Position numbers and translations under genes: made by a program
Notes under the pieces: generated by a model
Told to the model about the DNA's origin: nothing
What the model saw: only the letters and a program-made list of their open reading frames with translations
Databases searched by the model: none
Shown: one piece after another, positions 7,997 through 22,626 of the stretch
How the letters are laid out: each line of letters starts with the position of its first letter
Numbering within the stretch: position 1 is the stretch's first letter
NCBI GenBank assembly: GCA_963826115.1
Contig: CAWGVS010000012.1
Coordinates: 736,001 to 800,000 of the forward strand
Origin: an uncultured Candidatus Rokubacteria bacterium
Lineage (GTDB): Bacteria > Methylomirabilota > Methylomirabilia > Rokubacteriales > DASRDR01
Reading direction: 5' to 3'
DNA: 64,000 nucleotides

Positions 7997-8032
7997 CCGG
8001 GCACCGAGCCAGCTCCTCGCGAGGAGGTGTCC

Positions 8033-9505
8033 ATGTCGTCACGCCCCCGCCCCGACCGGGCGCGGCTGCGCGCGGCGTTCCAGGCGATCGTCGGCCCGGA
8101 CGGCGTGCTGACGGAGCCGGACGAGCTGCTCGTCTACGAGTCGGACGGGCTCACCATCTTCCGCGCCACCGCCGACGCGGTGGTCTTCCCGCGGTCCACC
8201 GCCGAGGTCGCCGCCTGCGTCCGGCTGGCCAACGCGGAAGGCCTCCCGTTCGTCGCGCGCGGCGCCGGGACCGGCCTCGCCGGCGGGTGCCTGCCGGCGG
8301 AGGGCGGCGTCGTCATCGCCGTCACTCGCATGGCGCGGATTCTCGAGGTCGACTACGAGAACCAGCTCGCCGTCGTCGAGCCGGGGCTGGTGAACCTCCA
8401 CCTCTCCCAGGCGCTCGCGCCGCGCGGGTTCTACTACGCCCCCGACCCCTCGAGCCAGCTCGCCTGCACGATCGGCGGCAACGTCGCGAACAACTCCGGC
8501 GGCCCGCACACGCTGAAGTACGGGGTCACGACGAACCACGTGCTCGGCGTCGAGGTGGTCCTGCCCGACGGTGAGGTCGTGTGGCTCGGGGGCAAGGTGC
8601 GCGACCCCCAGGGCTACGACCTGGTCGGCCTCTTCGTGGGCTCGGAGGGGACCTTCGGCATCGTCACCAAGGTCGTGGTGCGGATCGTGCGCCGGCCGCC
8701 CGCCGTCCGCACGCTCCTCGCGGTGTTCGACCAGCTCGACCAGGCGTCGCAGACCGTAGCGGCCATCACGGCGCGCGGGCTCACGCCCGCCGCGATCGAG
8801 ATGATCGACCAGCTCACCATCCAGGCCGTCGAGGACGCGTTCGGCGCCGGGTACCCGCGCGACGCGGCGGCGGCACTGCTCATCGAGCTCGACGGGCTCG
8901 AGGTCGGGCTCGACGAGGAGGCCGAGCAGGTGGTCGCGGCCTGCCGCGAGACCGGCGCCCGCGAGATCCGGCGCGCCGCGAACGAGGCGGAGCGGCAGCT
9001 CCTGTGGAAGGGGCGGAAGCACGCGTTCGGCGCCTACGGGCGCGTGGCCCCCGCGTACATGGTGATGGACGGCGTGATCCCGCGGACGCGCCTCCCCGAG
9101 ATCCTGCGCCGCATCGAGCGGATCGTGACGACCCACGATCTCCGGGTCGGCAACGTCTTCCACGCCGGCGACGGGAACCTCCACCCGAACATCCTCTACG
9201 ATCCCCGGCGGCCGGGCGAGGAGGCGCGCGTCCTGACCGCAGGCGCCGAGATCATGCGCGCCTGCGTGGACGTGGGCGGCACGATCTCGGGCGAGCACGG
9301 CATCGGGCTCGAGAAGCGCGACTTCATGCCGTGGATCTTCTCCGAGGCCGACCTCGCCACGATGGCCGCGGTGAAGGGGGTGTTCAATCCCACGGGCCGG
9401 TGCAACCCCGGCAAGATCTTTCCGACCAAGAAGTCGTGCGCGCCGGGCGAGATCGCCTACCAGCCGCATCCGCTCGAGGCCAGCGGGCTGATCCAGCGCC
9501 TCTGA
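8033..9505 (+). CDS. glcD: Glycolate oxidase subunit GlcD
   Basis: RGAGTGLAGG, PDPSSQLACTIGGN, HAGDGNLHP, GEHGIG. Confidence 0.92.
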   Translation: MSSRPRPDRARLRAAFQAIVGPDGVLTEPDELLVYESDGLTIFRATADAVVFPRSTAEVAACVRLANAEGLPFVARGAGTGLAGGCLPAEGGVVIAVTRMARILEVDYENQLAVVEPGLVNLHLSQALAPRGFYYAPDPSSQLACTIGGNVANNSGGPHTLKYGVTTNHVLGVEVVLPDGEVVWLGGKVRDPQGYDLVGLFVGSEGTFGIVTKVVVRIVRRPPAVRTLLAVFDQLDQASQTVAAITARGLTPAAIEMIDQLTIQAVEDAFGAGYPRDAAAALLIELDGLEVGLDEEAEQVVAACRETGAREIRRAANEAERQLLWKGRKHAFGAYGRVAPAYMVMDGVIPRTRLPEILRRIERIVTTHDLRVGNVFHAGDGNLHPNILYDPRRPGEEARVLTAGAEIMRACVDVGGTISGEHGIGLEKRDFMPWIFSEADLATMAAVKGVFNPTGRCNPGKIFPTKKSCAPGEIAYQPHPLEASGLIQRL

Positions 9506-9529
9506 GGCGCGCGCGGCGCGCCGCCCGGC

Positions 9530-10873
9530 ATGACCACCGCCCTGCTCCAGACCCTCGCCGAGATCGTCGGGCCGGCGCACTGTCTCGCCGGCGCCGACCG
9601 GGCCCCCTACGTCGTGGACGGGCGGACGCCCTGTGGCGTCGTCCTCCCGGGCTCGGCCGACGAGGTGGCGCGCGCCGTGCGGGCCGCCGGGGCCGCCGGG
9701 GTGCCGGTGCTCCCGTGGGGCGGCGGGACCCAGATGTCGCGGGGCGCCCCGCCGCAGGACGGGGCGCTCGTCGTCAGTCTCCGGCGGATGAGCCGCGTCG
9801 TCGAGCACGAGCCGGGCGACCTCACGGCGACGGCGGAGGCCGGGATCACGTTCGATGCGCTCGAGCGCGCGCTCGGCGCGCGCGGCCAGTGGCTGCCGCT
9901 CGATCCGCCCGCGCCGGCGGAGGCGACGCTCGGCGGCGCGCTCGCCGCCAACAGCGCGGGCCCGCGCCGGCAGGGGTACGGCACCGCGCGTGACCTCGTG
10001 ATCGGCATCCGCGTGGTGGCGGCCGACGGCCAGGTCGTGCGCGCCGGCGGGAAGGTCGTGAAGAACGTGGCCGGGTACGACCTCGCGAAGCTCTACATCG
10101 GCTCCCACGGGACGCTCGGGATCATCGTGGACGCGACCGTGAAGCTCCGGCCCCGGCCGGAGACGGAGGGCGCCTGCTGGGCCGTGTTCCCGTCGCTCGA
10201 CCTCGCGGCGGCTGGCGCGACGCTCCTCGCCGGCTCCGAGCTCGGCCCGGTGGCGCTCGCGCTCTTGGACGCGGGGGCCGCGCGCGCCGCCGCGCCGGCC
10301 ATCGGCCTCGCGGCGGGCGGTGGGCCCGCCGTCCTGGCCGCGTACGATGGGCTCGGGCGCACGGTCGCGTGGCAGGCGGAGGAGACGACCCGGCGGCTCC
10401 GCGCCGCCGGCGCCCGGGCGGTCGAGGTCCTCGACGCTCCCGCCACCACGCGCGCGCTCGAGGTGGTGCGTGAGGCGCGCCATCTCCTCGCGAATCCGAT
10501 GGCGGTCGCGACGGCGGGCCTCCTGCCGGCGGACCTCGGCGCGTACATCGACGGCGCGCTGGCGACGGCGCGCGCCGCGGGGTTCGAGGCCGCCGCCGTC
10601 GCGCAGGCCGGCCACGGGCTGGTCACGCTCCTCCTCGCCCCGGCCGGCGCGGCGCGGCCGGGCGCGGTGGCGGCGGGCGTGCTCGCGGCGTGGCGGGACG
10701 CGGCGCGCGCCCGAGCCGGGCACCTCACGATCGAGTGGGCGCCGCTCGGCGTGCGCGAGGCGTGCCCGGTGTGGGACCCGCCCGGGCCGAGCGTCGCGCT
10801 CATGCGCGGGCTGAAGGCGAAGCTCGATCCCGCGGGCGTGCTGAACCCCGGGCGCTTCGTGGCGGGCATCTGA
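9530..10873 (+). CDS. glcE: Glycolate oxidase FAD subunit GlcE
   Basis: GGKVVKNVAGYDL, LKAKLDPAGVLNPGR; lies between glcD and glcF. Confidence 0.9.
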   Translation: MTTALLQTLAEIVGPAHCLAGADRAPYVVDGRTPCGVVLPGSADEVARAVRAAGAAGVPVLPWGGGTQMSRGAPPQDGALVVSLRRMSRVVEHEPGDLTATAEAGITFDALERALGARGQWLPLDPPAPAEATLGGALAANSAGPRRQGYGTARDLVIGIRVVAADGQVVRAGGKVVKNVAGYDLAKLYIGSHGTLGIIVDATVKLRPRPETEGACWAVFPSLDLAAAGATLLAGSELGPVALALLDAGAARAAAPAIGLAAGGGPAVLAAYDGLGRTVAWQAEETTRRLRAAGARAVEVLDAPATTRALEVVREARHLLANPMAVATAGLLPADLGAYIDGALATARAAGFEAAAVAQAGHGLVTLLLAPAGAARPGAVAAGVLAAWRDAARARAGHLTIEWAPLGVREACPVWDPPGPSVALMRGLKAKLDPAGVLNPGRFVAGI

Positions 10874-12213
10874 TGGCCGGGGGCGCGACCGTCACGCCGG
10901 CGCCCGGCGGCGCGCCGCCGGGAGTCCTCGCGGAGCTCGAGTACGGCCAGCTCCTCCAGTGCGTCCACTGCGGGCTGTGCCTCCCGAGCTGTCCGACGTA
11001 CGCGGAGCTCGGCCAGGAGCCCGACTCGCCGCGCGGCCGCATCTACCTCATCAAGGCGCTGGCCGACGGCCGGATCGGGCTCTCCGACGCCGCGGCCGCC
11101 CACCTGTCGCTCTGTCTCGGCTGCCGCGCCTGCGAGACCGCGTGCCCCTCGGGCGTTCAGTACGGCCACCTGATCGAGGCCGGGCGCGCCGAGCTCGAGA
11201 CACGACGCCCGGGCTCTCCCCTGCGTCGCCTCGTTCGCCGCGTTGCGTTCGGGACCCTCCTGCCCCGTCCCGCGCTCCTGCGCCTGGTCGCGGGCGCGCT
11301 CCGCGTCTACCAGCGGAGCGGGCTCCAGCGCCTGGTGCGAGCGAGCGGGGTCCTGCGCCTGTTCCCGGCGACGGTCGGAGCCTCGGAGGCTCTGCTCCCG
11401 CCGCTCCCGCCGGCCGGGGCGGGCGGTGCGCTTCCCGAGGTGACGACGGCCCGCGGCGCGCGGAAGGGATGCGTCGCGCTCCTCCACGGCTGCGTGCAGG
11501 ACGCGGTGTTCCGCCCGCACAACGAGGCGACGATCCGGTGCCTCACGCGCCAGGGCCTGGAGGTCCGGGTGCCGCGCGCCCAGGGCTGCTGCGGCGCGCT
11601 CCACGCCCACGCGGGCGAACCCGAGATGGCGCGCGCGCTCGCCCGCGCGACGATCGCCGCCTTCGAGGCGTCGGAGCTCGAGGCCGTCGTCGTCAACGCG
11701 GCCGGGTGCGGGGCGCACATGAAGGCGTACGGGCACCTCCTCCGCCACGACCCCGCGTGGACCGCGCGGGCGGCGGCCTTCGCGAAGAAGGTCGCCGACG
11801 TCACGGAGGTGCTCGCGCGGGTCCCGCTCGCGACGCCGCTCGGGCCGCTACCGCTCCGGGCGACGTACCACGACCCGTGCCACCTGGTCCACGGGCAGAA
11901 GGTCCGGAACGAGCCCCGCGCGCTTCTCCGCGCGGTGCCCGGGCTCGAGCTGGCCGAGCTCGGCGAGGCCGAGATGTGCTGCGGCTCGGCCGGGATCTAC
12001 AACCTCACCGAGCCCCAGATGGCGCAGCGGCTCCTCGACCGCAAGATGGCGCACGTCGAGGCGACGGGCGCCGAGACCGTGGTGACGGCGAACCCGGGGT
12101 GCATCCTCCAGCTCGCGGCGGGCCTCCGCGCCCGGGGCCGGAACGTGGAGGTGCTCCACGTCGTGGAGGTGCTGGACCGCGCGTACCAGGCCGCGGAGCG
12201 CCGGGCGCCGTGA
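10873..12213 (+). CDS. glcF: Glycolate oxidase Fe-S subunit GlcF
   Basis: CVHCGLCLPSCP, CLGCRACETACP, two CCG domains. Confidence 0.92.
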   Translation: MAGGATVTPAPGGAPPGVLAELEYGQLLQCVHCGLCLPSCPTYAELGQEPDSPRGRIYLIKALADGRIGLSDAAAAHLSLCLGCRACETACPSGVQYGHLIEAGRAELETRRPGSPLRRLVRRVAFGTLLPRPALLRLVAGALRVYQRSGLQRLVRASGVLRLFPATVGASEALLPPLPPAGAGGALPEVTTARGARKGCVALLHGCVQDAVFRPHNEATIRCLTRQGLEVRVPRAQGCCGALHAHAGEPEMARALARATIAAFEASELEAVVVNAAGCGAHMKAYGHLLRHDPAWTARAAAFAKKVADVTEVLARVPLATPLGPLPLRATYHDPCHLVHGQKVRNEPRALLRAVPGLELAELGEAEMCCGSAGIYNLTEPQMAQRLLDRKMAHVEATGAETVVTANPGCILQLAAGLRARGRNVEVLHVVEVLDRAYQAAERRAP

Positions 12214-12740
12214 CGGACCCGGCCGCGCCGGGCCGCTCGCCCGTCGAGGAGCACAAGGCCCACGCGCCCGCGCGGGTGCGGTGCGTCGTGTGCACGGTCT
12301 CCGACTCGAAGACGCCGGAGACCGATACCAGCGGGCGGCTCATCCGCGAGCTCCTCGTGGCCGCCGGGCACGAGGTGGTCGGCCACCACCTGGTCAAGGA
12401 CGAGCCGAGTCAGGTCCACGCGGTGATCCATCAGGCGTGCGCCCATCCCTCCGTCCAGGTCCTCATCTTCACGGGCGGCACGGGCATCGCGCCGCGAGAC
12501 CAGACGTTCGAGGCGATCGACGCGCTCCTCGAGAAGCGGCTCCCGGGCTTCGGAGAGCTCTTCCGGTGGCTCTCCTACCAGGAGATCGGGTCGGCGGCGA
12601 TGCTGTCCCGGGCCCAGGCGGGCATCCGGGCCGGGCGCACGATCTTCTCCCTGCCCGGCTCGCCGGCGGCGTGCCGACTCGCCGTCGAACGCCTGATCCT
12701 CCCCGAGCTCTCGCACATCGCGGGGCTCCTCGGCCGCTGA
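12210..12740 (+). CDS. moaB: Molybdopterin adenylyltransferase MoaB/MogA
   Basis: TVSDSKTPETDTSG, TGGTGIAPRDQT, LPGFGELFR, LPGSP. Confidence 0.92.
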   Translation: MTDPAAPGRSPVEEHKAHAPARVRCVVCTVSDSKTPETDTSGRLIRELLVAAGHEVVGHHLVKDEPSQVHAVIHQACAHPSVQVLIFTGGTGIAPRDQTFEAIDALLEKRLPGFGELFRWLSYQEIGSAAMLSRAQAGIRAGRTIFSLPGSPAACRLAVERLILPELSHIAGLLGR

Positions 12741-12795
12741 TCTCGGATAGAGTGGGAGCGCACGGCCCGCGGGGCGGGGCGGCGAGGAGGACAAC

Positions 12796-13884
12796 ATGAG
12801 GGCAGCTCGGTGGGGAATCCTCGGCGTCGTCCTGACGGTCACGATGGCGGGGCCCGCCGGGGCGCAGCCGACGCCGCTCGGGTCGGACCCACTCTGGCGC
12901 GATGGGCCGGGCGTGACGCCGGAACCGGAGCTCCTCCGCCTCAACGCCGCGCTCACGCGGCTCGCCGACCAGCTGCGGCCAGCCCTGGTGCAGATCCGCG
13001 TCCAGCGGCCGATGGAGGAGCCGGAGTCCGAGGACGCCCCGCGGCGCGCGCTCGGATCGGGCTTCGTCATCCACCCGAGCGGGTACGTCGTCACGAACGC
13101 CCACGTCGTCGAGCGCTCGGCGACGGTGCAGGTGCGGCTCGCGTCGGGCAAGCGGCTCGCGGGCACGGTGATCGGGCGGGACCGCCGGGTCGATTTGGCG
13201 CTCGTCAAGGTGGAGGTCGTGGAGGCGCTGCCGGTCCTGCCCCTCGGCGATTCCGAGCGCCTCGCGGTGGGCGAGCTCGTCCTGGCCCTCGGGCACCCCT
13301 TCGGGCTCGAGCAGACCGTCTCGCTCGGCATCGTGAGCCGGAAGGGCGCGCCCCTCCAGGCCGCGGCGCCCGGCTTCGACTTCATCCAGACCGACGCGGC
13401 GGTGAATCCCGGGAACTCCGGCGGCCCGCTGGTCGACATGGGCGGGCGGGTCGTGGGCGTGAACACGATGGCCGCCCGCAACGGCTCCATCGGCTTCGCG
13501 ATTCCGATCAACCTCATCAAGACGCTCCTCCCCCAGCTCCTCGCCAAGGGCGCGGTGGAGTGGGGGTGGATCGGCGTCCGGATCGACGAGATCACCGAGG
13601 AGAACGTCCGCGACTACGGGCTCGACACGCCGCGCGGCGTCGGCATCGAGGGCGTGCTCCCGGGCCAGCCGGCGGCCCAGGCGGGCATCCGCGCGAAGGA
13701 CGTCATCCTCCAGGTCGACGGGCAGCCCATCGGGAGCCCGCGCGAGCTCCAGCGCGTCATCGCGACCGCGCCCGTGGGGACGCCCGTCCGCGTCTCGCTC
13801 TGGCGAGACGGTCAGGCGCAGGAGCTGACGGTGACGGTGGGTCGCTCTCCGGAGGAAGACGCGCCGCCGCGCGTGCCGCGCTGA
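12796..13884 (+). CDS. HtrA/DegP-family serine protease with PDZ domain
   Basis: Signal peptide, TNAHVV, DLALVK, TDAAVNPGNSGG, C-terminal PDZ. Confidence 0.95.
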   Translation: MRAARWGILGVVLTVTMAGPAGAQPTPLGSDPLWRDGPGVTPEPELLRLNAALTRLADQLRPALVQIRVQRPMEEPESEDAPRRALGSGFVIHPSGYVVTNAHVVERSATVQVRLASGKRLAGTVIGRDRRVDLALVKVEVVEALPVLPLGDSERLAVGELVLALGHPFGLEQTVSLGIVSRKGAPLQAAAPGFDFIQTDAAVNPGNSGGPLVDMGGRVVGVNTMAARNGSIGFAIPINLIKTLLPQLLAKGAVEWGWIGVRIDEITEENVRDYGLDTPRGVGIEGVLPGQPAAQAGIRAKDVILQVDGQPIGSPRELQRVIATAPVGTPVRVSLWRDGQAQELTVTVGRSPEEDAPPRVPR

Positions 13885-13900
13885 CGGGGGCGACCGGGCG

Positions 13901-15085
13901 TCAGCGCCCGGTCGGTTCCGGCGCGGCGCAGGCCTCGTCGCCCGCGGCGTGGATCGAGAGGTCGCGGATCGTGGGGGCCTCGCCGCAGAGCGGGCACTTC
14001 GGATCCTTCCGGAGCCGCACCTCGCGGAAGCGCATCCCCAGCGCGTCGTAGGTCAGGAGCCGCCCGATCAGGAGCTCCCCCTTGCCGAGGATGAGCTTCA
14101 CCGTCTCGGTCGCCTGCACCACCCCGATGAGTCCCGGGAGCACGCCCAGGACGCCGGCCTCGTTTCAGGACGGGACGAGGCCCGCGGGGGGCGGGACCGG
14201 GTACAGGCAGCGGTAGCAGGGCCCGCGCTCGGGGGCGAGGACGGTGACCATGCCCTCGAACTGGAAGATCGAGCCGTGGACGTTCGGCTTCCCGGCGAGG
14301 TAGCACGCGTCGTTGACGAGGTACCGCGTGGCAAAGTTGTCGGACCCGTCGACGATGACGTCGTAGTCCTTGATGATCCGCTCGATGTTGTCGACCGTGA
14401 TCCGCTCGGCGTACGGGACCACCGTCACGTCCGGGTTCAGCGCGGTGATCGTGTCGCGCGCGGATTCGACCTTCGGCCGCCCGACGTCCGACGTCCGGTG
14501 GAGCACCTGGCGCTGGAGGTTCGAGAGGTCCACCACGTCGTCGTCGACGACGCCGAGCGTGCCGACGCCGGCCGCCGCGAGGTAGAGCGCCGTCGGCGAG
14601 CCAAGGCCCCCCGCGCCGATCAGCAGCACCTTCGCGCGGAGCAGCGCCTTCTGCCCGGGCTCCCCCACCTGCGTCAGCATGAAGTGGCGGCTGTAGCGCT
14701 CCATCTGGTCCGCGGTGAGGGGCTGGTCCTTGACCAGGGGGAGCTTCAGATCCTTCCACCGCCGGATGCCCCCCGCCATCGAGGTCACGTTCGTGTACCC
14801 GAGGTCGTGGAGGACCTTGCCCGCGAGGAGGGAGCGGAGCCCGGAGAGGCAGTAGAGCGTGAGCGGCGTCTCCGGATCGGGGAACGCCTCCGGGACCTTG
14901 AACTCGAGGAACCCGCGGCTGATCGGCACGGCCCCCGCGACGGCGCCCTCCCGGTACTCGTCGGGGTCCCGCACGTCGATGAGGTTGACGGCCTCGCCGC
15001 GGGCGATGCGGCCCTGCACGTCCTCGACGGTGACCTCGGGGACGGCGCGCTTGGCGTCGGCGACCAGATCGCGATAGGTCTTCAT
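13901..15085 (-). CDS. moeB: Rhodanese-MoeB/ThiF fusion with in-frame UGA (putative selenocysteine, codon 307)
   Basis: Rhodanese LYCLSGLRS; GAGGLGSP, SNLQRQ, CYRC, C-terminal CPLC; GLVPS-[TGA 14165-14167]-NEAGVLGVLPG continues in frame to the stop at 13901. Confidence 0.85.
14131..14152 (-). promoter_or_regulatory. Putative bacterial SECIS hairpin
   Basis: GTCCTGGG-CGTGCT-CCCGGGAC: 8-bp stem, G-containing loop, starting 12 nt after the UGA. Confidence 0.6.
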
Positions 15086-15162
15086 GGCTCGGTGGCTCCT
15101 CGGGTGCCGGCGATGCCAGATGCAGGCTCCCTTGCGGCCCGCTCGGTCGTGGAGATTACCAC

Positions 15163-15189
15163 ATATCCCGATCGGGTCACGGGGGATAT
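15163..15189. promoter_or_regulatory. Palindromic operator upstream of moeB (Rrf2-type candidate)
   Basis: ATATCCC-N13-GGGATAT next to a minus-strand extended -10 TGGTAATCT. Confidence 0.45.
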
Positions 15190-15271
15190 TTCCTCCTTGA
15201 GCGCCCCGGATGGCCGGCGCTACACTGAAGGGCCGGGCTAGAGTGCAAAATTGGATAATGTTGGCTGCTAG

Positions 15272-16369
15272 ATGCGGATCGCGATCGACGCGCGCCTGTG
15301 GGCGGAGCCCCGGAGCGGAATCGGCCGGTACACCCGGGCGCTGACCGACCATCTCCTCCGACTGGCCCCGGAGGAGACGTGGGTGCTCTACGTCGACCGG
15401 CCCCCGGGGCCGACCGGCCCCGGGGTAGAAGTGCGATGTCTGCCCTGGCCCCAGCGTCTCCTCTGGTCGCTTTGGCACGCTCCCCGCGACCTCCGCCGGC
15501 ATCCCGTCGATGTCTTCCACGGCGTGACGGGGTTCGAGCTGCCGGGTCGCGGGCCGTGGGCACTCGTCACGACCGTCCACGACCTCGTGCCGTTCCGCTT
15601 CCCCCACCTGGTGCCCGCGCGGCACCGCTGGGCGGTGCGGGCCCTCCTCGGGCCGGCGCTCCGTCGGGCCCGGCGCGTCATCGCCGTCTCGGAGGCCACG
15701 CGCGCCGAGCTCCTGGCGCGCTACCGGCTGCCGCCGGCGCGGGTCGTCGTGGTGCCCGAGGCGGCGGCGACCCACTTCGCGCCGCCTGCCCCCGACGCGC
15801 TCGCGAGGGCACGCGCGCGCTACGGGCTCGCGCGCCCGTACGTCCTCTTCGTCGGCCTTCTCGAGCCGAAGAAGAACCTCGAGGCCCTGCTCGCGGCGGT
15901 CGCCCGGCTCCGCCGGGACGGCGCGTGGGGCGACACGGAGCTCGTCGTCGTGGGCGCGCCCGGGTGGGGGCCGGCGCCGGCGGCGCGGGCCCACGCGCTC
16001 GGGCTCGACGGCGCGGTGCGCTTCGTGGGGCCGGCCCCGGACGCGGATCTCCCGGCGCTCTACGGCGGCGCCCTCGCCTTCGCGTTCCCGTCGCTCTGGG
16101 AGGGCTTCGGGCTGCCGGTGCTCGAGGCGATGGCGGCCGGCGCGCCGGTCGTCGCCTCGAACCGGGGCGCCCTCCCGGAGGTCACGGGGGGCGCGGCGCT
16201 CCTCGTCGAGCCCGCGCCCGATCCGCTCGCGGAGGGGCTCGCCCGGATCCTCGCCGACGCGGACCTCCGGGCGCGCCTCCGCGAGGCGGGGCTCCGGCGC
16301 GCCGCGGCGTTCTCCTGGGAGCGCACGGCGCGCGAGACGCTGGCGGTGTACCGCGGGGCGGCGGCGTGA
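15272..16369 (+). CDS. GT4 glycosyltransferase
   Basis: SGIGRY, TVHDL, EPKKN, FPSLWEGFGLPVLEAMAAG. Confidence 0.95.
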   Translation: MRIAIDARLWAEPRSGIGRYTRALTDHLLRLAPEETWVLYVDRPPGPTGPGVEVRCLPWPQRLLWSLWHAPRDLRRHPVDVFHGVTGFELPGRGPWALVTTVHDLVPFRFPHLVPARHRWAVRALLGPALRRARRVIAVSEATRAELLARYRLPPARVVVVPEAAATHFAPPAPDALARARARYGLARPYVLFVGLLEPKKNLEALLAAVARLRRDGAWGDTELVVVGAPGWGPAPAARAHALGLDGAVRFVGPAPDADLPALYGGALAFAFPSLWEGFGLPVLEAMAAGAPVVASNRGALPEVTGGAALLVEPAPDPLAEGLARILADADLRARLREAGLRRAAAFSWERTARETLAVYRGAAA

Positions 16370-17820
16370 GCGTCGCGGGCGGGAGCGCGGAGCGGATCGC
16401 GCGCAACGCGGCCCTCAAGGTGCTGGTCCACGCGACGCGGCTCGGCTCGCTCGTCCTGGTCATCGTCACCGCGCGCGTGATCGGGCCCGCGGAGTTCGGC
16501 AAGTTCACGTTCGCGTACGCGCTGGCCACCATCCTCGGGGTGGCGATCGACTTCGGCATCACGGCCGTGCTCACCCGGTCGGTGGCCCGGGACCCCGGGG
16601 CGACCGCGGAGCGATGGGGCACGGCCGCGACGCTGAAGCTCGCGCTGACGGGAATCTTGGCGCCGCTCTACCTCGCGGCGCCGCTCGTCCTCCACCGGCC
16701 GTGGGACACGACCGCGGCGGTGTGGGGCCTCGGGCTGGCCATCGTGCTCCAGGGGCTCCTCGAGAACGCGGTCTCCGTCTTCACGGCCGTCCAGCGGATC
16801 GAGCACGAGCTCCGCGCGCGTCTGATCGAGAAGGTCGTGCTCGTGACGGCGGGGTTCGTCGCGCTCGGGCTGGGCGCGGGGCTCCTCGGCGTCGTGTTCG
16901 CGTTCGTCCTGGCGGCCGCGGTCTCGCTCGCGTTCGCCACGTGGCGCATCCACCGGCAGGTCGCGCCGCTCGGGCGCTGGTGGCGCCCCGCGGGCGCCCG
17001 CACGCTGGCGCGCGAGCTCGCCCCGATCGCCCAGGCGCAGTTCCTCGTCTACTGCACCGCGCGCCTGACGCCCGTGGCCGTGGCGCTCCTCGCCGGAGAC
17101 GACGCGGCCGGGCACTTCGGCGCGGCGTTCCGCGTCTACGACGTGGTCTGGGTGGTGCTCGCCAGCCTCGAGGGGGCCATCTACCCGGAGCTCGCCCGGA
17201 CACCGCCCGGGCACCCCCGCTTCCGCGCGCTCATGACGCAGGCGTGCGAGGCCCTCCTCCTCGTCGTGCTGCCGATCGCCCTCGGGCTTGCCGCGGGCGC
17301 GTGGTGGCTGACGCCGCGGATTTACGGGCCGGGGTGGGGGCCGACGGCGCCCGTGCTGGCGGTGCTGGGCACGGCGGTCGGCGCCGCGATGCTGACGCAT
17401 CTCCTCGGGCTCGTGCTCCTGGCGCTCGACCGGCCGCGCCGGCTGCGCGGGATCGCCGCGCTCACGTTCGTCACGGGCCTGGCGGTGATCCCCACGGGCG
17501 TCCTGATGGGCGGCGCGCTCGGCGGGGCCGTGGCGGTGCTCGTCGTGGAGGGCGTGAGCCTCGTGGCGAGCCTGGTGAGCGTCCGGCAGGTGGCCGGCGC
17601 GCCGCTCGGCCGGGGCGCCGTCAAGGGGCTCGCGGCCGCCGCGGCCGCCGCCGGCGTGGCGACGCTCCTGCCCGCGGGGGTGGGCCGACTCGTGGGCGCG
17701 CTCCTCGCGTACGCGGTGGCCCTCGTCGTGCTCCGGCCGGTGCCGGGCGCCGTCTGTCTCCGCCTCGTGCGCGGGGCGCTCGGCCGCGCGGGCCCGCCCG
17801 CGGCGACCGGGGCGGGCTGA
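16366..17820 (+). CDS. Wzx-type flippase
   Basis: Many TM helices; ARVIGPAEFGKF, DFGITAVLTRSVARD. Confidence 0.85.
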   Translation: MSVAGGSAERIARNAALKVLVHATRLGSLVLVIVTARVIGPAEFGKFTFAYALATILGVAIDFGITAVLTRSVARDPGATAERWGTAATLKLALTGILAPLYLAAPLVLHRPWDTTAAVWGLGLAIVLQGLLENAVSVFTAVQRIEHELRARLIEKVVLVTAGFVALGLGAGLLGVVFAFVLAAAVSLAFATWRIHRQVAPLGRWWRPAGARTLARELAPIAQAQFLVYCTARLTPVAVALLAGDDAAGHFGAAFRVYDVVWVVLASLEGAIYPELARTPPGHPRFRALMTQACEALLLVVLPIALGLAAGAWWLTPRIYGPGWGPTAPVLAVLGTAVGAAMLTHLLGLVLLALDRPRRLRGIAALTFVTGLAVIPTGVLMGGALGGAVAVLVVEGVSLVASLVSVRQVAGAPLGRGAVKGLAAAAAAAGVATLLPAGVGRLVGALLAYAVALVVLRPVPGAVCLRLVRGALGRAGPPAATGAG

Positions 17821-18971
17821 TGCACGTCGTCCTGGACGCCCGCTACATCGCGCGGCGCCAGTCGGGCGTCGGGTCGTACGCCCAGCGGCTCATCACCGGG
17901 CTCGCCACGATCGACCACGAGAACCGGTACACGTGCCTCGTGGCGGCCGACGGGCCGGGGCTGCCGGTCCGGCAGGCGAACGTCGCGGCGTCGCCGACGC
18001 GCGTGTCGTTCGAGGACCACCTCCGGGGCGACCTCTGGCTCCTCGGGTACCTCCCGTTCCGGCTGCGGGCCCTCGGGACCGACGTCTACCACGGCCCCGC
18101 GGTGTTCCTCCCGCACGTGAAGCTCGGCTTCCGCACCGTCGTGACCATCCACGACCTCGTGTCCTTCCTGTTCCCCGAGACCGTTCCACGCAAGTACAGC
18201 CTCTACATGCGTCTGATGACCCGCCTGGCCGCGCGGTCGGCGGACCGGATCATCGCGGTGTCCCAGGCGACGAAGGCCGATCTCGTCCAGACCCTCCGGG
18301 TGCCGCCGGCGAAGATCGTGGTCATCCACGAGGCGGTCGGCCCCGAGTTCGCGCGGGCCCAGACGCCCGAGGCCATCGAGGCGGTCGTCCGCCGCTACGG
18401 GCTCCGCCATCCGTACTGCCTGTTCGTCGGGAACCTCGAGCCGCGCAAGAACCTGCCGGGGCTGATCGAGGCGTTCGCCACGGTGCGGCGGCGGCTCAGC
18501 GCGACGGGGCCGGAGCCGCAGCTGGTCCTGGTCGGCACGCGGGCCTGGCTCCACGGCGGCATCTTCCGCGCCGTCGAGACGCACGGCCTCGCCGCCGCCG
18601 TCGCGTTCACCGACTACGTGCCGCTCGCCGACCTGCCGGCGCTCTACGCGGGCGCGACGTGTTTCGTCTTCCCGTCCCTCTACGAGGGCTTCGGGCTGCC
18701 GGTGCTCGAGGCGATGGCGGCGGGCGCCCCCGTGGTCGCGGCGCGCGCGGGATCGATCCCCGAGGTCGCGGGGGACGCGGCCCTCCTCGTCGACGCGCGC
18801 GCCCCCGGCGAGCTCGCGGGCGCGATCGAGGCGGTGCTCACCGACCCGGCGCTCCGGGACCGGCTGGTCGCGCGCGGGCGCGCGCGGGCGGCCACGTTCG
18901 AGTGGAACACGGTGGCCCGCCAGACGCTCGCCGTCTACGACGCCGTGTACGCGCGGGAGGGCGCGCGATGA
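17820..18971 (+). CDS. GT4 glycosyltransferase
   Basis: SGVGSY, TIHDL, EPRKN, SLYEGFGLPVLEAM. Confidence 0.95.
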   Translation: MHVVLDARYIARRQSGVGSYAQRLITGLATIDHENRYTCLVAADGPGLPVRQANVAASPTRVSFEDHLRGDLWLLGYLPFRLRALGTDVYHGPAVFLPHVKLGFRTVVTIHDLVSFLFPETVPRKYSLYMRLMTRLAARSADRIIAVSQATKADLVQTLRVPPAKIVVIHEAVGPEFARAQTPEAIEAVVRRYGLRHPYCLFVGNLEPRKNLPGLIEAFATVRRRLSATGPEPQLVLVGTRAWLHGGIFRAVETHGLAAAVAFTDYVPLADLPALYAGATCFVFPSLYEGFGLPVLEAMAAGAPVVAARAGSIPEVAGDAALLVDARAPGELAGAIEAVLTDPALRDRLVARGRARAATFEWNTVARQTLAVYDAVYAREGAR

Positions 18972-20086
18972 AGGTCGCGCTCGACGCTCGGAAGATCGAC
19001 GATTTCGGCATCGGGACGTACATCCAGGGGCTGCTCGACGCGCTGCCGGCGGTCGGCCAGCCCGAGGCCCTCGTCGCGTACCTCCCGCCGGACCGCCCGC
19101 CGCCGCCCGCGGCCCGGGCCGGCTGGGGGGCGCGGGCCGCGTGGCAGCCAGTGGGCGCCCGCGCGTACTCCGTCCGCGAGCTCTGGCAGCTCGCGCTCGC
19201 CGCGCGCCGGGACCGCGTCGACCTCTACCACGCGCCGCACTACGTCTGCCCCCCGTGGCTTCCGTGCCCGGCGGTCGTGACGGTGCACGACCTGATCCAC
19301 CTGCGCTTCCCGGTGCGCCACCGGCATCCGCTCGCCCCCCTCTACGCGCGCGTGATGCTGCGGCTGACGGTCCGCCGCGCGCGCCGGCTCGTCACCGTCT
19401 CGGAGTCGACGCGCCGGGACCTCGTCGAGCGGCTCGGCGCGCGGCCCGAGCGGATCCGCGTGATCCCGAACGGCGTCGGCGCGCCCTTCGGGCCGGCGCC
19501 GGCCGACGGCGCCGCGACGGGGGCGCCGACGCTCGGCGAGCTCGGGGTGACGCGCCCCTACTTCCTCTTCGCGGGCAATCCCCTGCCCCACAAGAACCTG
19601 CCCCGGCTGCTCGAGGCGTTCGCGGGGCTCCCGCCGATGCTGGGGGGGCTCGTCCTCGTCGGGATCCCGCCCGCCGCGCGCGCCCACGTCGAGCGTCTCT
19701 GCGCGGCCCCCGGCCTCGGCGGCCGGGTGCGGATCCTGGCGCCCGTGCCGGCGCCCGCCCTGGCGCGCCTCTACCAGAGCGCCACCGTCGTGGTGGTCCC
19801 GTCGCTCTGGGAAGGGTTCGGCTTGGCCGCTCTCGAGGCGATGGCCTGCGGCGCGCCCGTGATCGCGGGGAACCGCGGCGGGCTGCCCGAAGTCGTGGGG
19901 GACGCGGGCTGTTTGGTCGACCCCACCGACGTTGACGCGCTGCGTGAGGCTATGTATACTCTGGCCGGCCGAGAACCTCTCCGCGCCGCGCTCCGAGCTC
20001 GTGGACTGGCCCGCGCGCGCGCATTCTCGTGGCGGCATGTCGCCGAGGCCACGGTCGCCGTCTACCGCGAGGCGCTGGAGGCCTGA
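18968..20086 (+). CDS. GT4 glycosyltransferase
   Basis: FGIGTY, TVHDLIHL, PHKN, SLWEGFGLAALEAMACG. Confidence 0.95.
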   Translation: MKVALDARKIDDFGIGTYIQGLLDALPAVGQPEALVAYLPPDRPPPPAARAGWGARAAWQPVGARAYSVRELWQLALAARRDRVDLYHAPHYVCPPWLPCPAVVTVHDLIHLRFPVRHRHPLAPLYARVMLRLTVRRARRLVTVSESTRRDLVERLGARPERIRVIPNGVGAPFGPAPADGAATGAPTLGELGVTRPYFLFAGNPLPHKNLPRLLEAFAGLPPMLGGLVLVGIPPAARAHVERLCAAPGLGGRVRILAPVPAPALARLYQSATVVVVPSLWEGFGLAALEAMACGAPVIAGNRGGLPEVVGDAGCLVDPTDVDALREAMYTLAGREPLRAALRARGLARARAFSWRHVAEATVAVYREALEA

Positions 20087-20102
20087 GGAACGTGGGTGAC
20101 TG

Positions 20103-21215
20103 ATGCGGGTCGCGCTGGTCCATGACTGGCTGACCGGCATGCGGGGGGGCGAGCGAGTTCTGGAGCGCCTCCTCGACCTCTTCCCCGCGGCAGACATCTT
20201 CACGCTCGTCCACGTGCGCGGGAGCGTCACGCCCGCCATCGAGGCGCGCCCCATCCGAACGTCCTTCGTTCAGCGCCTGCCCGGGGCACCCTGGCGGTTT
20301 CGCCAGTACCTGCCCCTGTTTCCGCTCGCCGTCCGGCGGTTCGACCTCCGCGGCTACGACCTCGTGCTGGCGACCAGCCACTGCGTCGCGGTCGGCGCGC
20401 GGCCGCCGGCCGGCGCGGCGCACGTGGTCTACTGCTTCACGCCAATGCGCTACGCGTGGACGTTCGAGGGCGCCTACGTCGGCCGCGTGCCGCCGCTCGC
20501 GCGGGGCGCGCTCCGCGCCGCGCTCGCGGGGCTCCGGCGGTGGGACCGCGCGGCGGGCCAGCGGGCCGGGCACATCGGGTGCATCTCCCGCCACGTGGCC
20601 GCGCGCATCCGGCGGGTGTGGGGCCGCGAGGCGCGGGTCGTCTACCCGCCGGTGCGGACCGACTTCTTCCGGCCGCTCGACGCCGGCCCGCCCGGCGACG
20701 CATATCTCTGCGTCTCCGCGCTCACGCCCTACAAGCGGATCGACGTGGCGGTCGACGCGTGCACGCGGCTCGGCCGGCGGCTCGACGTCATCGGCACGGG
20801 CCCGGAGCTCCCGCGGCTCCGCCGGCGCGCGGGGCCGACGGTGCGCTTCCTCGGCTGGCAGCCCGACGCGGCCGTGCGGGAGGCGGTCGCCCGCTGCCGC
20901 GCGTTCCTGTTCCCCGGCGAGGAGGAGTTCGGGATCGCGCCGCTCGAGGCGACGGCCGCCGGCCGGCCCGTCATTGCCTACGCGCGGGGCGCCTTGACCG
21001 AGACGGTCGTCGACGGCGTGACCGGGCTCTTCTTCCGCGAGCAGACCGCGGGCGCGCTGGAGGACGTCATCGAGCGCGCCGAGGTCACGGGCTGGAGCTC
21101 CGAGAAGATCCGGGCGCACGCGCTCCGCTTCGGCGAGGACGCCTTCCGGGCCGAGATGACCGCGTTCGTGGACGCGGCCCTCGGGGCGGGCCGGGAGGCG
21201 CGCGCCGCGTGCTGA
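20103..21215 (+). CDS. GT4 glycosyltransferase
   Basis: VHDWLTGMRGGERVL, YCFTPMRY, PYKRID, EEEFGIAPLEA. Confidence 0.95.
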   Translation: MRVALVHDWLTGMRGGERVLERLLDLFPAADIFTLVHVRGSVTPAIEARPIRTSFVQRLPGAPWRFRQYLPLFPLAVRRFDLRGYDLVLATSHCVAVGARPPAGAAHVVYCFTPMRYAWTFEGAYVGRVPPLARGALRAALAGLRRWDRAAGQRAGHIGCISRHVAARIRRVWGREARVVYPPVRTDFFRPLDAGPPGDAYLCVSALTPYKRIDVAVDACTRLGRRLDVIGTGPELPRLRRRAGPTVRFLGWQPDAAVREAVARCRAFLFPGEEEFGIAPLEATAAGRPVIAYARGALTETVVDGVTGLFFREQTAGALEDVIERAEVTGWSSEKIRAHALRFGEDAFRAEMTAFVDAALGAGREARAAC

Positions 21216-22609: not shown

Positions 22610-22626
22610 GCGCGAGGCGAACCAGG

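What the first reader, a model, noticed from the sequence alone, without database searches (positions are those of the whole stretch)
13901..15085. Probable selenoprotein: rhodanese-MoeB with UGA at the conserved Cys
Seen: the ORF track splits this gene, but the parts are in frame, PPPAGLVPS-[UGA]-NEAGVLGVLPG, and the downstream part supplies the second Zn-binding CxxC (CPLC). An 8-bp hairpin with a G-containing loop starts 12 nt after the UGA. Established: MoeB/MoeZ/Uba4 homologs have S-C-x-E-A-G-V here, so the stop falls exactly on the Cys. Inference: Sec307 in a sulfur-carrier activating enzyme, not a pseudogene. I recall Sec-MoeB being predicted from metagenomes but not characterised (verify).
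Basis: partly seen in the sequence, partly recalled or inferred. Interest (0 to 1): 0.75.

Follow-up and report, generated by a model that had tools for sequence, protein, structure and literature searches.

The report
Selenocysteine in a rhodanese-MoeB sulfur-carrier activating enzyme
This is an intact gene for a sulfur-carrier-activating enzyme that puts the rare amino acid selenocysteine at its catalytic cysteine position; the selenoprotein family was predicted from metagenomes in 2005 but has never been studied at the bench.

Summary
Window 15085..13901 (- strand) is one 394-codon gene: an N-terminal rhodanese domain plus a MoeB/ThiF E1-like adenylyltransferase. It has an in-frame TGA at codon 307 (14167..14165).

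Evidence that the TGA means selenocysteine:
- The genome holds selA, selB, tRNA-Sec and a TGA-containing selD.
- Of the 150 best matches listed from 251 genomes of the phylum, 144 carry an in-frame TGA and 6 carry none. The 6 were fetched and have TGC.
- All 47 distinct TGA-bearing places fetched have the TGA in the same column.
- The hairpin 12 nt after the UGA is frozen at synonymous sites in Sec forms and broken in Cys forms that encode the same peptide.
- Public gene callers truncate the protein at residue 306.

Residue 307 aligns with E. coli MoeB Cys187 and with the thioester-forming Cys of Uba4.

A DNA-pattern scan found the same TGA in 80 of 80 fetched MoeB genes from about ten phyla. 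At least 78 of them are fused to a rhodanese domain.

Sec-MoeB was already listed as a predicted selenoprotein family in 2005, 2008, 2022 and 2026, so this is a new member of a known, uncharacterised kind. Four related genomes carry a second TGA at the rhodanese active-site Cys.

The parts
13901..15085 (-). Whole coding sequence: 394 codons plus stop. Rhodanese + MoeB/ThiF adenylyltransferase with Sec307.
   Evidence: Pfam Rhodanese 19-112 and ThiF 131-365. NCBIfam NF006444 MoeB equivalog, 535.5 bits against a cut-off of 449.
14750..15031 (-). Rhodanese domain (residues 19-112).
   Evidence: PF00581, E 4.3e-14.
14849..14851 (-). TGC codon of Cys79, the rhodanese active-site loop Cys (LYCLSGLRS).
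   Evidence: Read. This column is TGA in four related genomes.
14600..14617 (-). GAGGLG nucleotide-binding motif (residues 157-162).
   Evidence: Read from the translation. Lies inside the ThiF match.
13991..14695 (-). ThiF/MoeB E1-like adenylation domain (residues 131-365). It spans the TGA.
   Evidence: PF00899, E 2.9e-87, profile positions 1-237 of 238 in a single stretch across codon 307.
14207..14218 (-). First CxxC (Cys290, Cys293).
   Evidence: Aligned with PCYRC of E. coli MoeB.
14165..14167 (-). In-frame TGA, codon 307, read as selenocysteine. Aligns with E. coli MoeB Cys187 and the Uba4 thioester Cys.
14131..14152 (-). SECIS-like hairpin: 8-bp stem GUCCUGGG/CCCGGGAC with a 6-nt loop CGUGCU, starting 12 nt after the UGA.
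   Evidence: Synonymous sites of codons 312-316 are invariant in 40 of 40 Sec forms. The stem is broken in 6 of 6 Cys forms.
13985..13996 (-). Second CxxC (Cys364, Cys367), downstream of the TGA.
   Evidence: Aligned with GCEVCG of E. coli MoeB.
13901..13903 (-). True stop codon (TGA).
   Evidence: In 29 orthologs the terminal stop drifts (9 TGA, 15 TAG, 5 TAA), whereas codon 307 is TGA in 30 of 30.

Best explanation
Window 15085..13901 (- strand) encodes one full-length selenoprotein of 394 residues.

How the UGA is read: UGA-307 is most likely decoded as selenocysteine by the genome's own SelA/SelB/tRNA-Sec/SelD system. The 8-bp hairpin that starts 12 nt after the UGA, inside the coding sequence, would act as the bacterial SECIS element.

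What the protein is: a two-domain activating enzyme for sulfur-carrier proteins. It has an N-terminal rhodanese domain with active-site Cys79, which would carry a persulfide. It also has a MoeB/ThiF E1-like domain, which would adenylate the C-terminal glycine of a ThiS/MoaD-type carrier.

Where the Sec sits: at the E1 'catalytic cysteine'. This is E. coli MoeB Cys187 and Uba4 Cys202 (C. thermophilum) / Cys225 (yeast).

Inferred mechanism, by analogy with Uba4:
1. The carrier-adenylate is attacked by the selenolate of Sec307, giving an acyl-selenoester.
2. The persulfide on rhodanese Cys79 attacks that intermediate.
3. The carrier leaves as a thiocarboxylate.

What is shown: the gene, the conserved TGA, Cys/Sec alternation, the hairpin under RNA-level selection, the Sec machinery, and the alignment of residue 307 with the E1 Cys.

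What is inferred: actual Se incorporation, the selenoester step, and which carrier is served. Candidates are MoaD and ThiS, which have no E1 gene beside them in this genome.
For: Intact family member when read through:
- The Pfam ThiF match runs in one stretch across codon 307.
- NCBIfam NF006444 scores above its cut-off.

Sec machinery in the same genome:
- selA at C8:83378-84475.
- selB at C8:81424-83304.
- tRNA-Sec at C8:85942-86039.
- selD with 1 in-frame TGA.

Conservation of the TGA:
- 53 of 53 rhodanese-MoeB matches in 61 related genomes carry a TGA.
- Of 150 matches listed from 251 genomes of the phylum, 141 have 1 TGA, 3 have 2 and 6 have none. 90 further matches were not listed.
- The TGA is in the same column in 30 of 30, 8 of 8 and 5 of 5 fetched loci. 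The 6 'none' forms have TGC.
- The real stop codon drifts (9 TGA, 15 TAG, 5 TAA), while codon 307 is TGA in 30 of 30.

SECIS hairpin:
- The stem has 6-8 pairs in all 42 distinct Sec-form places of the order. It is broken at the loop-closing pair in 6 of 6 Cys forms that encode the identical GVLGVLPG.
- Codons 312-316 show zero synonymous variation in 40 of 40 Sec forms. Elsewhere only 11 of 121 invariant-residue codons do.
- Across phyla, 98 of 105 distinct Sec-form sequences have a run of 6 or more pairs at this place. None of 14 Cys-form controls does.

Catalytic position:
- The alignment to 1jw9 and 6yub puts residue 307 on the conserved Cys.
- That Cys is the only physiological thioester site of Uba4 and is needed for thiocarboxylation (PMC11662940, abstract and passages; PMC6007339, abstract).

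Link to rhodanese: 80 of 80 fetched pattern hits from about ten phyla are MoeB homologs with this TGA. 68 have an N-terminal rhodanese and 12 have a C-terminal extension. The extension was confirmed as rhodanese in 6 of 6 tested; 2 run off their contig.

Possible targets:
- The genome has only two E1-like genes. The short one sits in its own PALP-ThiS-ThiF cluster.
- thiS (in thiE-thiG-thiS-thiO) and moaD-moaE have no E1 gene within the 1.5 kb of flank examined on each side.
- An ortholog from another order has thiI 95 nt upstream.
Against: - No experiment shows selenium in this or any MoeB protein.
- Classical covariation does not support the hairpin. On 105 sequences, 0 pairs change on both sides, and the observed score equals every one of 500 shuffles. 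The hairpin overlaps the highly conserved peptide GVLGVLPG, so the case rests on synonymous sites and on the Sec/Cys contrast.
- No Rfam family matched.
- Only six Cys-form orthologs were available as DNA, and they represent few lineages.
- E. coli MoeB Cys187 is, as I recall and did not check here, dispensable in vitro. A thioester or selenoester step is therefore not a given for bacterial enzymes.
- The rhodanese domain is N-terminal here, not C-terminal as in Uba4.
- No sulfur-carrier gene lies beside the gene in the window.
- The read evidence is weak. Contigs only were laid. One contig from an RNA library bridges the codon but belongs to a relative (25 differing letters), and RNA libraries can hold DNA.
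Confidence: 0.88

Rival explanations
1. Same selenoprotein, different chemistry. Sec307 does not form an acyl-selenoester. Instead it acts as the resolving or redox residue. It attacks the acyl-disulfide or the rhodanese persulfide to give a Se-S bond, comparable to the ThiF Cys184-ThiS acyl-disulfide, and this releases the thiocarboxylate or recycles Cys79.
For: - Residue 307 is also the equivalent of the conserved ThiF/MoeB loop Cys.
- The Uba4 papers leave open which nucleophile cleaves the acyl-disulfide: 'a yet unidentified' nucleophile (PMC11662940, Figure 7 legend passage).
- Sec forms are all rhodanese-fused.
- Four genomes also place Sec at the rhodanese Cys, which fits a Se-S or Se-Se exchange pair.
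Against: - In Uba4 the aligned Cys is shown to be the thioester site.
- Nothing here separates the two chemistries.
Confidence: 0.3
2. The TGA is a real stop. The cell makes only a 306-residue rhodanese plus partial ThiF fragment, or the gene is a pseudogene. The downstream 87 codons are not translated.
For: - Public gene callers predict exactly this. 72 of the 120 best database hits are shorter than 380 residues, and 71 of them end in ...GLVPS.
- No protein-level data exist.
Against: - The downstream frame stays open and conserved, including the second CxxC, in every ortholog fetched.
- The ThiF profile needs it: positions 1-237 of 238 match across the TGA.
- Codon 307 is always TGA while the real stops drift among three codons.
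- Cys forms alternate with it.
- Synonymous sites of the hairpin are frozen.
Confidence: 0.03
3. UGA-307 is read through without selenium. It is read as Cys or Trp by a near-cognate tRNA, or the organism reassigns UGA.
For: Reading U as C gives a normal family member. Some bacteria can place Cys at UGA when selenium is scarce (recalled).
Against: - UGA also ends this gene and 9 of 29 orthologs, so it is not reassigned.
- A full Sec apparatus with a tRNA-Sec (anticodon tca) is present.
- A hairpin is maintained at SECIS distance only in TGA forms.
- Cys-form genomes G174, G175 and G224 still keep selA. This shows the codon choice is gene-specific.
Confidence: 0.04

Closest known systems
Sec-containing 'molybdopterin biosynthesis MoeB protein' selenoprotein family (Zhang, Fomenko and Gladyshev 2005, PMC1088965; GOS 2008, PMC2398784; reviews PMC9312934 and PMC13188914)
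   Same: A MoeB/ThiF (COG0476, PF00899) homolog with one in-frame UGA paired with Cys in homologs, and a stem-loop after the UGA. It has been predicted only and never characterised. The record titles include marine lineages such as SAR324 and Verrucomicrobia, in line with the marine origin of the published members.
   Different: The passages I read give no Sec position, no domain architecture and no taxon. I could not confirm that the published members carry Sec at the same residue or have a rhodanese domain. Figures are not held and supplements were not opened. The 2026 review lists one Sec per protein, whereas four relatives here have two.
NCBIfam NF006444 (PRK08762) rhodanese-MoeB, Cys forms
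   Same: Same architecture, and a full-length match (model positions 3-374 of 387, 535.5 bits, above the cut-off). There are 48 full-length database proteins at 63-83% identity. 45 were seen to have Cys at the site, and the other 3 were not inspected there.
   Different: The window's gene has TGA where those have TGC or TGT, and it carries the hairpin that they lack.
Uba4 / MOCS3 (eukaryotes) and MoeZ-type enzymes: E1-like domain with a C-terminal rhodanese
   Same: An E1-like adenylation domain fused to a rhodanese. Residue 307 aligns with the Uba4 thioester Cys, and a rhodanese Cys carries the persulfide. Twelve of the 80 Sec forms found in other phyla have the C-terminal extension of this architecture, confirmed as rhodanese in 6 of 6 tested.
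   Different: In the window the rhodanese is N-terminal. The residue is Sec, not Cys. The carrier is unknown. About 46% identity to Uba4 by eye over the aligned adenylation domain only.
E. coli MoeB (1JW9) and ThiF (1ZUD)
   Same: Best solved relatives: E 1.4e-58 and 4.1e-55. They share the GxGxxG motif, both CxxC pairs and the loop Cys.
   Different: Those enzymes have no rhodanese domain and use Cys. The role of that Cys differs between them (recalled: dispensable in MoeB, acyl-disulfide in ThiF).

Membership tests
Bacterial selenoprotein gene (SelB-dependent UGA recoding) | In-frame UGA aligned with Cys in homologs, with an open and conserved frame on both sides | tested here: met
   TGA is in the same column in 47 of 47 distinct fetched TGA-bearing places of the phylum. 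TGC is found in 6 of 6 stop-free forms.
Bacterial selenoprotein gene (SelB-dependent UGA recoding) | Stem-loop (SECIS) immediately downstream of the UGA with a small apical loop containing G | tested here: met
   8-bp stem 12 nt after the UGA, loop CGUGCU. Frozen synonymous sites. Present in 98 of 105 Sec forms and 0 of 14 Cys controls. There is no compensatory covariation and no curated RNA model. The published bSECIS consensus criteria are recalled and were not run.
Bacterial selenoprotein gene (SelB-dependent UGA recoding) | selA, selB, selC (tRNA-Sec) and selD in the same genome | tested here: met
Bacterial selenoprotein gene (SelB-dependent UGA recoding) | Selenium shown in the protein | not testable with these tools
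   Needs 75Se labelling or mass spectrometry.
MoeB/ThiF E1-like adenylyltransferase (PF00899; NF006444) | Profile score above the curated cut-off over the full domain | tested here: met
   PF00899 scores 292.2 bits (cut-off 28.1), profile positions 1-237 of 238. NF006444 scores 535.5 bits (cut-off 449).
MoeB/ThiF E1-like adenylyltransferase (PF00899; NF006444) | GxGxxG nucleotide loop and two CxxC pairs | tested here: met
   GAGGLG at residues 157-162. Cys290/293 and Cys364/367 align with E. coli MoeB.
MoeB/ThiF E1-like adenylyltransferase (PF00899; NF006444) | Adenylates MoaD specifically (molybdopterin synthase pathway) | not testable with these tools
   No carrier gene lies beside the gene. 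moaD-moaE and thiS lie elsewhere without an E1 gene within the 1.5 kb of flank examined on each side. A MoCF_biosynth gene lies two genes away. An ortholog has thiI next to it.
Published Sec-MoeB family (2005/2008) | Sec at the same residue as the published members | not testable with these tools
   The text passages give no position. Figures are not held. The example accession could not be fetched.
Rhodanese sulfurtransferase domain (PF00581) | Profile match and an active-site Cys loop | tested here: met
   PF00581 scores 53.2 bits (cut-off 22.2). Cys79 lies in LYCLSGLRS, and this column is Cys or Sec in all orthologs examined.
Uba4/MOCS3/MoeZ architecture | Rhodanese domain C-terminal to the E1 domain | tested here: not met
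   The rhodanese is N-terminal, at residues 19-112. The gene may work like Uba4 but is not a member of that architecture.

The most novel reading that the evidence does not exclude
Sec307 is a true catalytic nucleophile that forms an acyl-selenoester with the sulfur-carrier protein. This would be a natural 'seleno-E1'.

In every Sec form whose ends could be seen (78 of the 80 fetched; 2 run off their contig), across about ten phyla, a rhodanese domain is present or indicated. It was shown by BLAST for the 68 N-terminal forms and by Pfam for 6 of the C-terminal ones, and is inferred from extension length in 4. This would mean that rhodanese-fused bacterial MoeB/ThiF enzymes use a covalent E1~carrier intermediate as Uba4 and the ubiquitin E1s do. 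The double-Sec relatives (Sec79 + Sec307) would then run a Se-to-Se relay, and might even hand over selenium rather than sulfur.
Probability: 0.4. Interest if true: 0.6.

Novelty: new member of a known kind. Interest (0 to 1): 0.4.

Why it matters
- Annotation. The gene is truncated at residue 306 in most public gene calls (71 of the 120 best database hits end at ...GLVPS). Metabolic reconstructions of these uncultured soil bacteria may therefore score MoeB as broken. By named near-relatives they are Rokubacteria/Methylomirabilota.
- Mechanism. Selenocysteine is costly to insert. It sits at the E1 loop Cys across about ten phyla, in genes that also encode a rhodanese domain wherever both ends could be seen. 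This argues that the residue does chemistry in the fused enzymes. It bears on an old question: do bacterial MoeB/ThiF-type enzymes use a covalent intermediate, as their eukaryotic descendants Uba4 and the ubiquitin E1s do? Natural Sec/Cys pairs at 66-83% identity are ready-made material for that comparison.
- What is not new. Selenium use in MoeB was predicted in 2005.

Tried and rejected
- Rfam scan of 13800-15200 at E up to 10: no SECIS family, only five chance-level hits.
- Formal covariation on 105 sequences for the 8-bp register: no pair changes on both sides, and 500 of 500 shuffles score as high. Sliding the 3' partner by +1 gives 77.3% of cells paired, with 2 pairs changed on both sides. 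This reflects a second register used by some lineages, not proof of structure.
- Loss of Sec machinery as the cause of Cys forms: rejected. G174, G175 and G224 keep SelA. G198 (78% complete) showed only a sub-threshold hit.
- Synteny as a clue to the carrier. HtrA and GT4 neighbours are kept only within the family f1. In f2 the neighbours are sugar-nucleotide genes. No ThiS/MoaD gene is adjacent. In one search my 'MoaB-like' query (12281-12799) was in the wrong frame. Its hits show only DNA conservation and are not used.
- A ThiS-family hit next to tRNA-Sec (C8:86097-86258) was not confirmed by Pfam on the open frames I passed through a GC3 filter. Dropped.
- Read laying: contigs only. No difference was listed at 14165-14167, but 97 differences were not shown. 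Parts without cover are no finding. Habitat labels of runs with small shares were not used.
- Earlier findings of this scan were not open to the session.
- Literature searches. 'selenocysteine + adenylyltransferase + MoeB + catalytic cysteine' returned 0 papers. 'Rokubacteria + selenocysteine' returned 3 papers (listing seen only), none about this gene by title.
- Not done: structure prediction, complex prediction and the atlas search. The tools give no coordinates with which to measure the distance between Cys79 and Sec307.
Full report
**1. What is in the sequence**

On the - strand an ATG at 15085 opens a frame that runs to a stop at 13903..13901. The only interruption is a TGA at 14167..14165, which is codon 307.

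The mechanical ORF list splits the gene into 14165..15994 (ending ...PPPAGLVPS) and 13901..14143, both in the same frame.

Read through, the 394-residue product has these features:
- A Pfam Rhodanese domain at residues 19-112.
- A ThiF domain at residues 131-365. It matches profile positions 1-237 of 238 in one stretch across codon 307.
- A score of 535.5 bits on NCBIfam NF006444, an 'equivalog' model named MoeB, against a cut-off of 449.
- A GAGGLG loop at residues 157-162.
- A first CxxC (Cys290/293) before the TGA and a second (Cys364/367) after it.
- A hairpin that starts 12 nt after the UGA: GUCCUGGG, loop CGUGCU, CCCGGGAC, at 14152..14131.

**2. Is the TGA a sense codon?**

*Sec machinery.* The window's genome (6.24 Mb, 12 contigs) carries the full set:
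- selA at C8:83378-84475.
- selB at C8:81424-83304.
- tRNA-Sec with anticodon tca at C8:85942-86039.
- selD, whose own match contains one in-frame TGA.

*Conservation of the TGA.*
- In 61 related genomes, all 53 matches that include the rhodanese-MoeB form carry an in-frame TGA. 51 are full length, 2 are cut by contig ends, and identity is 66-100%.
- In all 251 genomes held for the phylum, the 150 best matches listed split into 141 with one TGA, 3 with two and 6 with none. A further 90 weaker matches were not listed.
- I fetched and translated the loci. TGA is at codon 307 in 30 of 30 and in 8 of 8 further loci. It is at the aligned codon in 5 of 5 orthologs from two other families of the class, at 60-63% identity.
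- The six stop-free forms all have TGC there.
- The true terminator drifts among TGA (9), TAG (15) and TAA (5), with one ortholog running off its contig. Codon 307 never changes.
- Loci L043 (G055) and L067 (G104) come from genomes flagged as unpublished. Dropping them lowers each count by one and changes nothing.

*Lineages without the fused gene.* Five genomes sampled from five other families of the class (f7, f8, f9, f12, f13) showed only a short MoeB with no rhodanese and no stop at the site.

*Not a loss of the machinery.* Cys-form genomes G174, G175 and G224 still encode SelA.

*Direction of change.* I built a quick maximum-likelihood tree of 99 rows:
- 45 of the rows are loci and 54 are Cys rows.
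- 48 of the Cys rows are database proteins.
- Three partial or duplicate rows (L064, L065, L066) were left out.

I rooted the tree on the two other families. The result:
- Cys forms fall in at least 3 groups by strongly supported branches and 7 by parsimony, nested among Sec forms. This fits repeated Sec-to-Cys replacement.
- The root is an assumption.
- Three database rows were labelled Cys without my inspecting the site.

**3. The hairpin**

Its stem is made of the codons for the highly conserved peptide GVLGVLPG, so nucleotide conservation alone proves little. Four tests bear on it.

- *Synonymous variation within Sec forms.* In the 40 Sec-form orthologs of the order, codons 312-316 (GTC CTG GGC GTG CTC) show no synonymous variation at all. 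Among the other 121 codons whose residue is invariant in the same sequences, only 11 are frozen. Mean codon entropy is 0.42 inside 308-319 and 0.81 outside.
- *Sec forms against Cys forms.* The six Cys-form orthologs encode the same eight residues with other codons (GTG, CTC, CTG, CCG/CCC). This breaks the loop-closing pair in 6 of 6. All 42 distinct Sec-form places keep 6-8 pairs.
- *Other lineages.* Orthologs from the two other families use a different stem sequence with a 7-nt loop at the same place. Over 105 distinct Sec-form sequences from many phyla, 98 have an unbroken run of at least 6 pairs in one of the two registers, 3 have 5 and 4 have 2. Of 14 Cys-form controls (6 orthologs and 8 short paralogs), none reaches 6 and two reach 5.
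- *Covariation.* The classical test is negative. No pair changes on both sides, and shuffles equal the observed score 500 times out of 500. Rfam has no matching family.

I therefore call this a SECIS element on three grounds: its position, RNA-level purifying selection, and the Sec/Cys contrast. Covariation does not support it.

**4. Sequencing error and expression**

More than 140 independent assemblies share the TGA, which rules out a sequencing error.

Laying contigs of four public runs on 13801-15200 listed no other letter at 14165-14167. DNA contigs of run X1 bridge the codon (records 2 and 3). So does one contig from a metatranscriptome library (X16, record 17). That contig has 25 differing letters, so it belongs to a relative. 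In addition, 97 differences were not displayed, and an RNA library can hold DNA. This is compatible with transcription but does not prove it.

**5. Which residue is it?**

The phmmer alignment to solved structures places residue 307 on the Cys of 'TCVEAGV' in E. coli MoeB, which is Cys187 by my count along the alignment. It also falls on the Cys of 'SCGEAG' in Chaetomium Uba4.

For Uba4, that residue (Cys202 in Chaetomium, Cys225 in yeast) forms a thioester with the adenylated carrier Urm1. [quoted passage not shown] Together with the rhodanese Cys397 it is required for thiocarboxylate formation (PMC11662940, abstract and passages; PMC6007339, abstract).

The window's enzyme has both partners in one chain: Cys79 in the rhodanese loop LYCLSGLRS, and Sec307.

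**6. How widespread is it?**

All 80 loci that were fetched with flanks are MoeB homologs (45-93% identity to the window's protein) with the TGA in frame at this site.

By record titles they include Rokubacteria/Methylomirabilota, Poribacteria, Latescibacterota, Actinomycetota, Verrucomicrobia, SAR324, Nitrospinota, Entotheonella, Syntrophaceae/Thermodesulfobacteriota, Planctomycetota and Chloroflexi.

Architectures among the 80:
- 68 have the N-terminal rhodanese.
- 12 have a C-terminal extension instead. Pfam confirmed a C-terminal rhodanese in 6 of 6 tested and an N-terminal one in 4 of 4 tested. Two of the 12 run off their contig.

So wherever the ends can be seen, a Sec at the E1 site comes with a fused rhodanese. 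The caveat is that the pattern required a particular motif and may miss other forms. Many of these distant genes use the very same stem, GUCCUGGG...CCCAGG.

The nearest named relative of the window's gene, at 92.5% identity, is titled as an uncultured Rokubacteria MAG.

**7. Which carrier does it serve?**

No ThiS/MoaD gene lies in the window near the gene. The neighbours are:
- An HtrA-like protease, convergent with it.
- A MoCF_biosynth (MogA/MoaB-like) gene just before the protease.
- A divergent glycosyltransferase cluster.

Genome-wide there are only two E1-like genes. The short one follows a PLP enzyme and a ThiS-family gene.

The other carriers have no E1 gene within the 1.5 kb of flank examined on each side:
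- thiS inside thiE-thiG-thiS-thiO.
- moaD-moaE.
- A PLP-enzyme/ThiS pair.
- A ThiS-like gene by a molybdopterin-binding oxidoreductase.

In an ortholog from another family, thiI without a rhodanese domain ends 95 nt upstream on the same strand.

My inference is that this is a shared activator for MoaD and/or ThiS. The name 'MoeB' is the family's label, not a tested specificity.

**8. Comparison with what is known**

- The 2005 Sargasso Sea study introduced 'Molybdopterin biosynthesis MoeB protein' as a new selenoprotein family, with 11 sequences (PMC1088965, passages).
- The 2008 GOS study counted 19 sequences (PMC2398784, passage).
- Reviews of 2022 and 2026 tabulate the family with one Sec per protein and an example accession (PMC9312934; PMC13188914).
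- The Olavius symbiont study lists it among families not detected there (PMC1976440).
- None of the passages gives the Sec position, the domain architecture or any biochemistry. Figures are not held and I opened no supplements.
- A full-text search for selenocysteine, adenylyltransferase, MoeB and 'catalytic cysteine' together found nothing. Three papers mention Rokubacteria with selenocysteine, none on this gene by title.

The window's gene is thus a new member of a known, predicted-only family.
- The identity of the site as the E1 thioester Cys.
- Its near-fixation in one order.
- Its tie to rhodanese fusion.
- The shared hairpin.
- The double-Sec relatives.

**9. Public annotation**

Of the 120 best hits among 5.8 billion predicted proteins, 72 are shorter than 380 residues and 71 of these end in ...GLVPS, which means they were cut at the TGA. 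The other 48 are full length. 45 of those have Cys at the site, and 3 were not inspected.

**10. Verdict**

- Confidence that this is a genuine selenoprotein gene: about 0.9.
- The selenoester mechanism is an inference, at about 0.4-0.5. It competes with a resolving or redox role for Sec307.
- Interest is moderate. The reading is correct and mechanistically suggestive, but the kind has been in the literature since 2005.

Noticed in passing
Related loci L040/L066 (G058), L062 (G207), L063 (G244), L064 (G025); the aligned window codon is 14851..14849: Four genomes from four genera of the same order have a second in-frame TGA at the rhodanese active-site Cys (LYUQTGLRS), as well as the TGA at 307. 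This makes them double-Sec rhodanese-MoeB genes. All four share a candidate hairpin, CCGGUC/GGUCCU/GGCCGG, 11 nt after that UGA. The three full-length ones form one clade (SH-aLRT 94). The 2026 review lists MoeB with one Sec only.
   Followed up: partly
G000:C5:561687-562604 (locus L011): The genome's selD match contains one in-frame TGA, so selenophosphate synthetase is itself probably a selenoprotein here. The short MoeB paralog and its ThiS-family partner lie about 10 kb away (C5:571643-572701).
   Followed up: no
window 13890-13919: A perfect palindrome, ACCGGGCG-CTGA-CGCCCGGT, has the gene's real stop codon in its loop. It lies between the convergent HtrA-like gene (which ends at 13884) and this gene, and looks like a shared bidirectional terminator. 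It gave a sub-threshold CRISPR-DR29 hit in Rfam (22.1 bits against a gathering score of 39).
   Followed up: no
window 8027-12740: Two FAD-linked oxidase genes and an Fe-S/CCG-domain gene (a GlcD/E/F-like set) are followed by a MoCF_biosynth (MogA/MoaB-like) domain at about 12288-12716. An HtrA-like protease follows at 12796-13884.
   Followed up: no
window 15272-23688: A polysaccharide cluster runs divergent from the MoeB gene. It holds four GT4 glycosyltransferases, a Polysacc_synt flippase, a Bac_transf priming transferase and a sugar nucleotidyltransferase. Sugar-nucleotide genes also flank the ortholog in the sister family f2.
   Followed up: partly
L068 (G100) 158-1405: In an ortholog from another family of the class, a thiI gene (THUMP + PP-loop, with no rhodanese domain seen) ends 95 nt upstream of the Sec rhodanese-MoeB on the same strand. 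This hints at a role in thiamin or 4-thiouridine synthesis.
   Followed up: partly
L140, L154, L161 (SAR324 and a proteobacterial MAG); L099 and other Poribacteria; L131 (Actinomycetota): Very distant Sec-MoeB genes, including the C-terminal-rhodanese architecture, use the identical stem-loop sequence GUCCUGGGCGUGCUCCCAGG. Either this SECIS is very old, or the Sec form has moved between phyla.
   Followed up: no
G200 and G152: Two assemblies hold both a TGA form and a TGC form of the gene on different contigs. These could be true paralogs or mixed strains within a metagenome bin.
   Followed up: no
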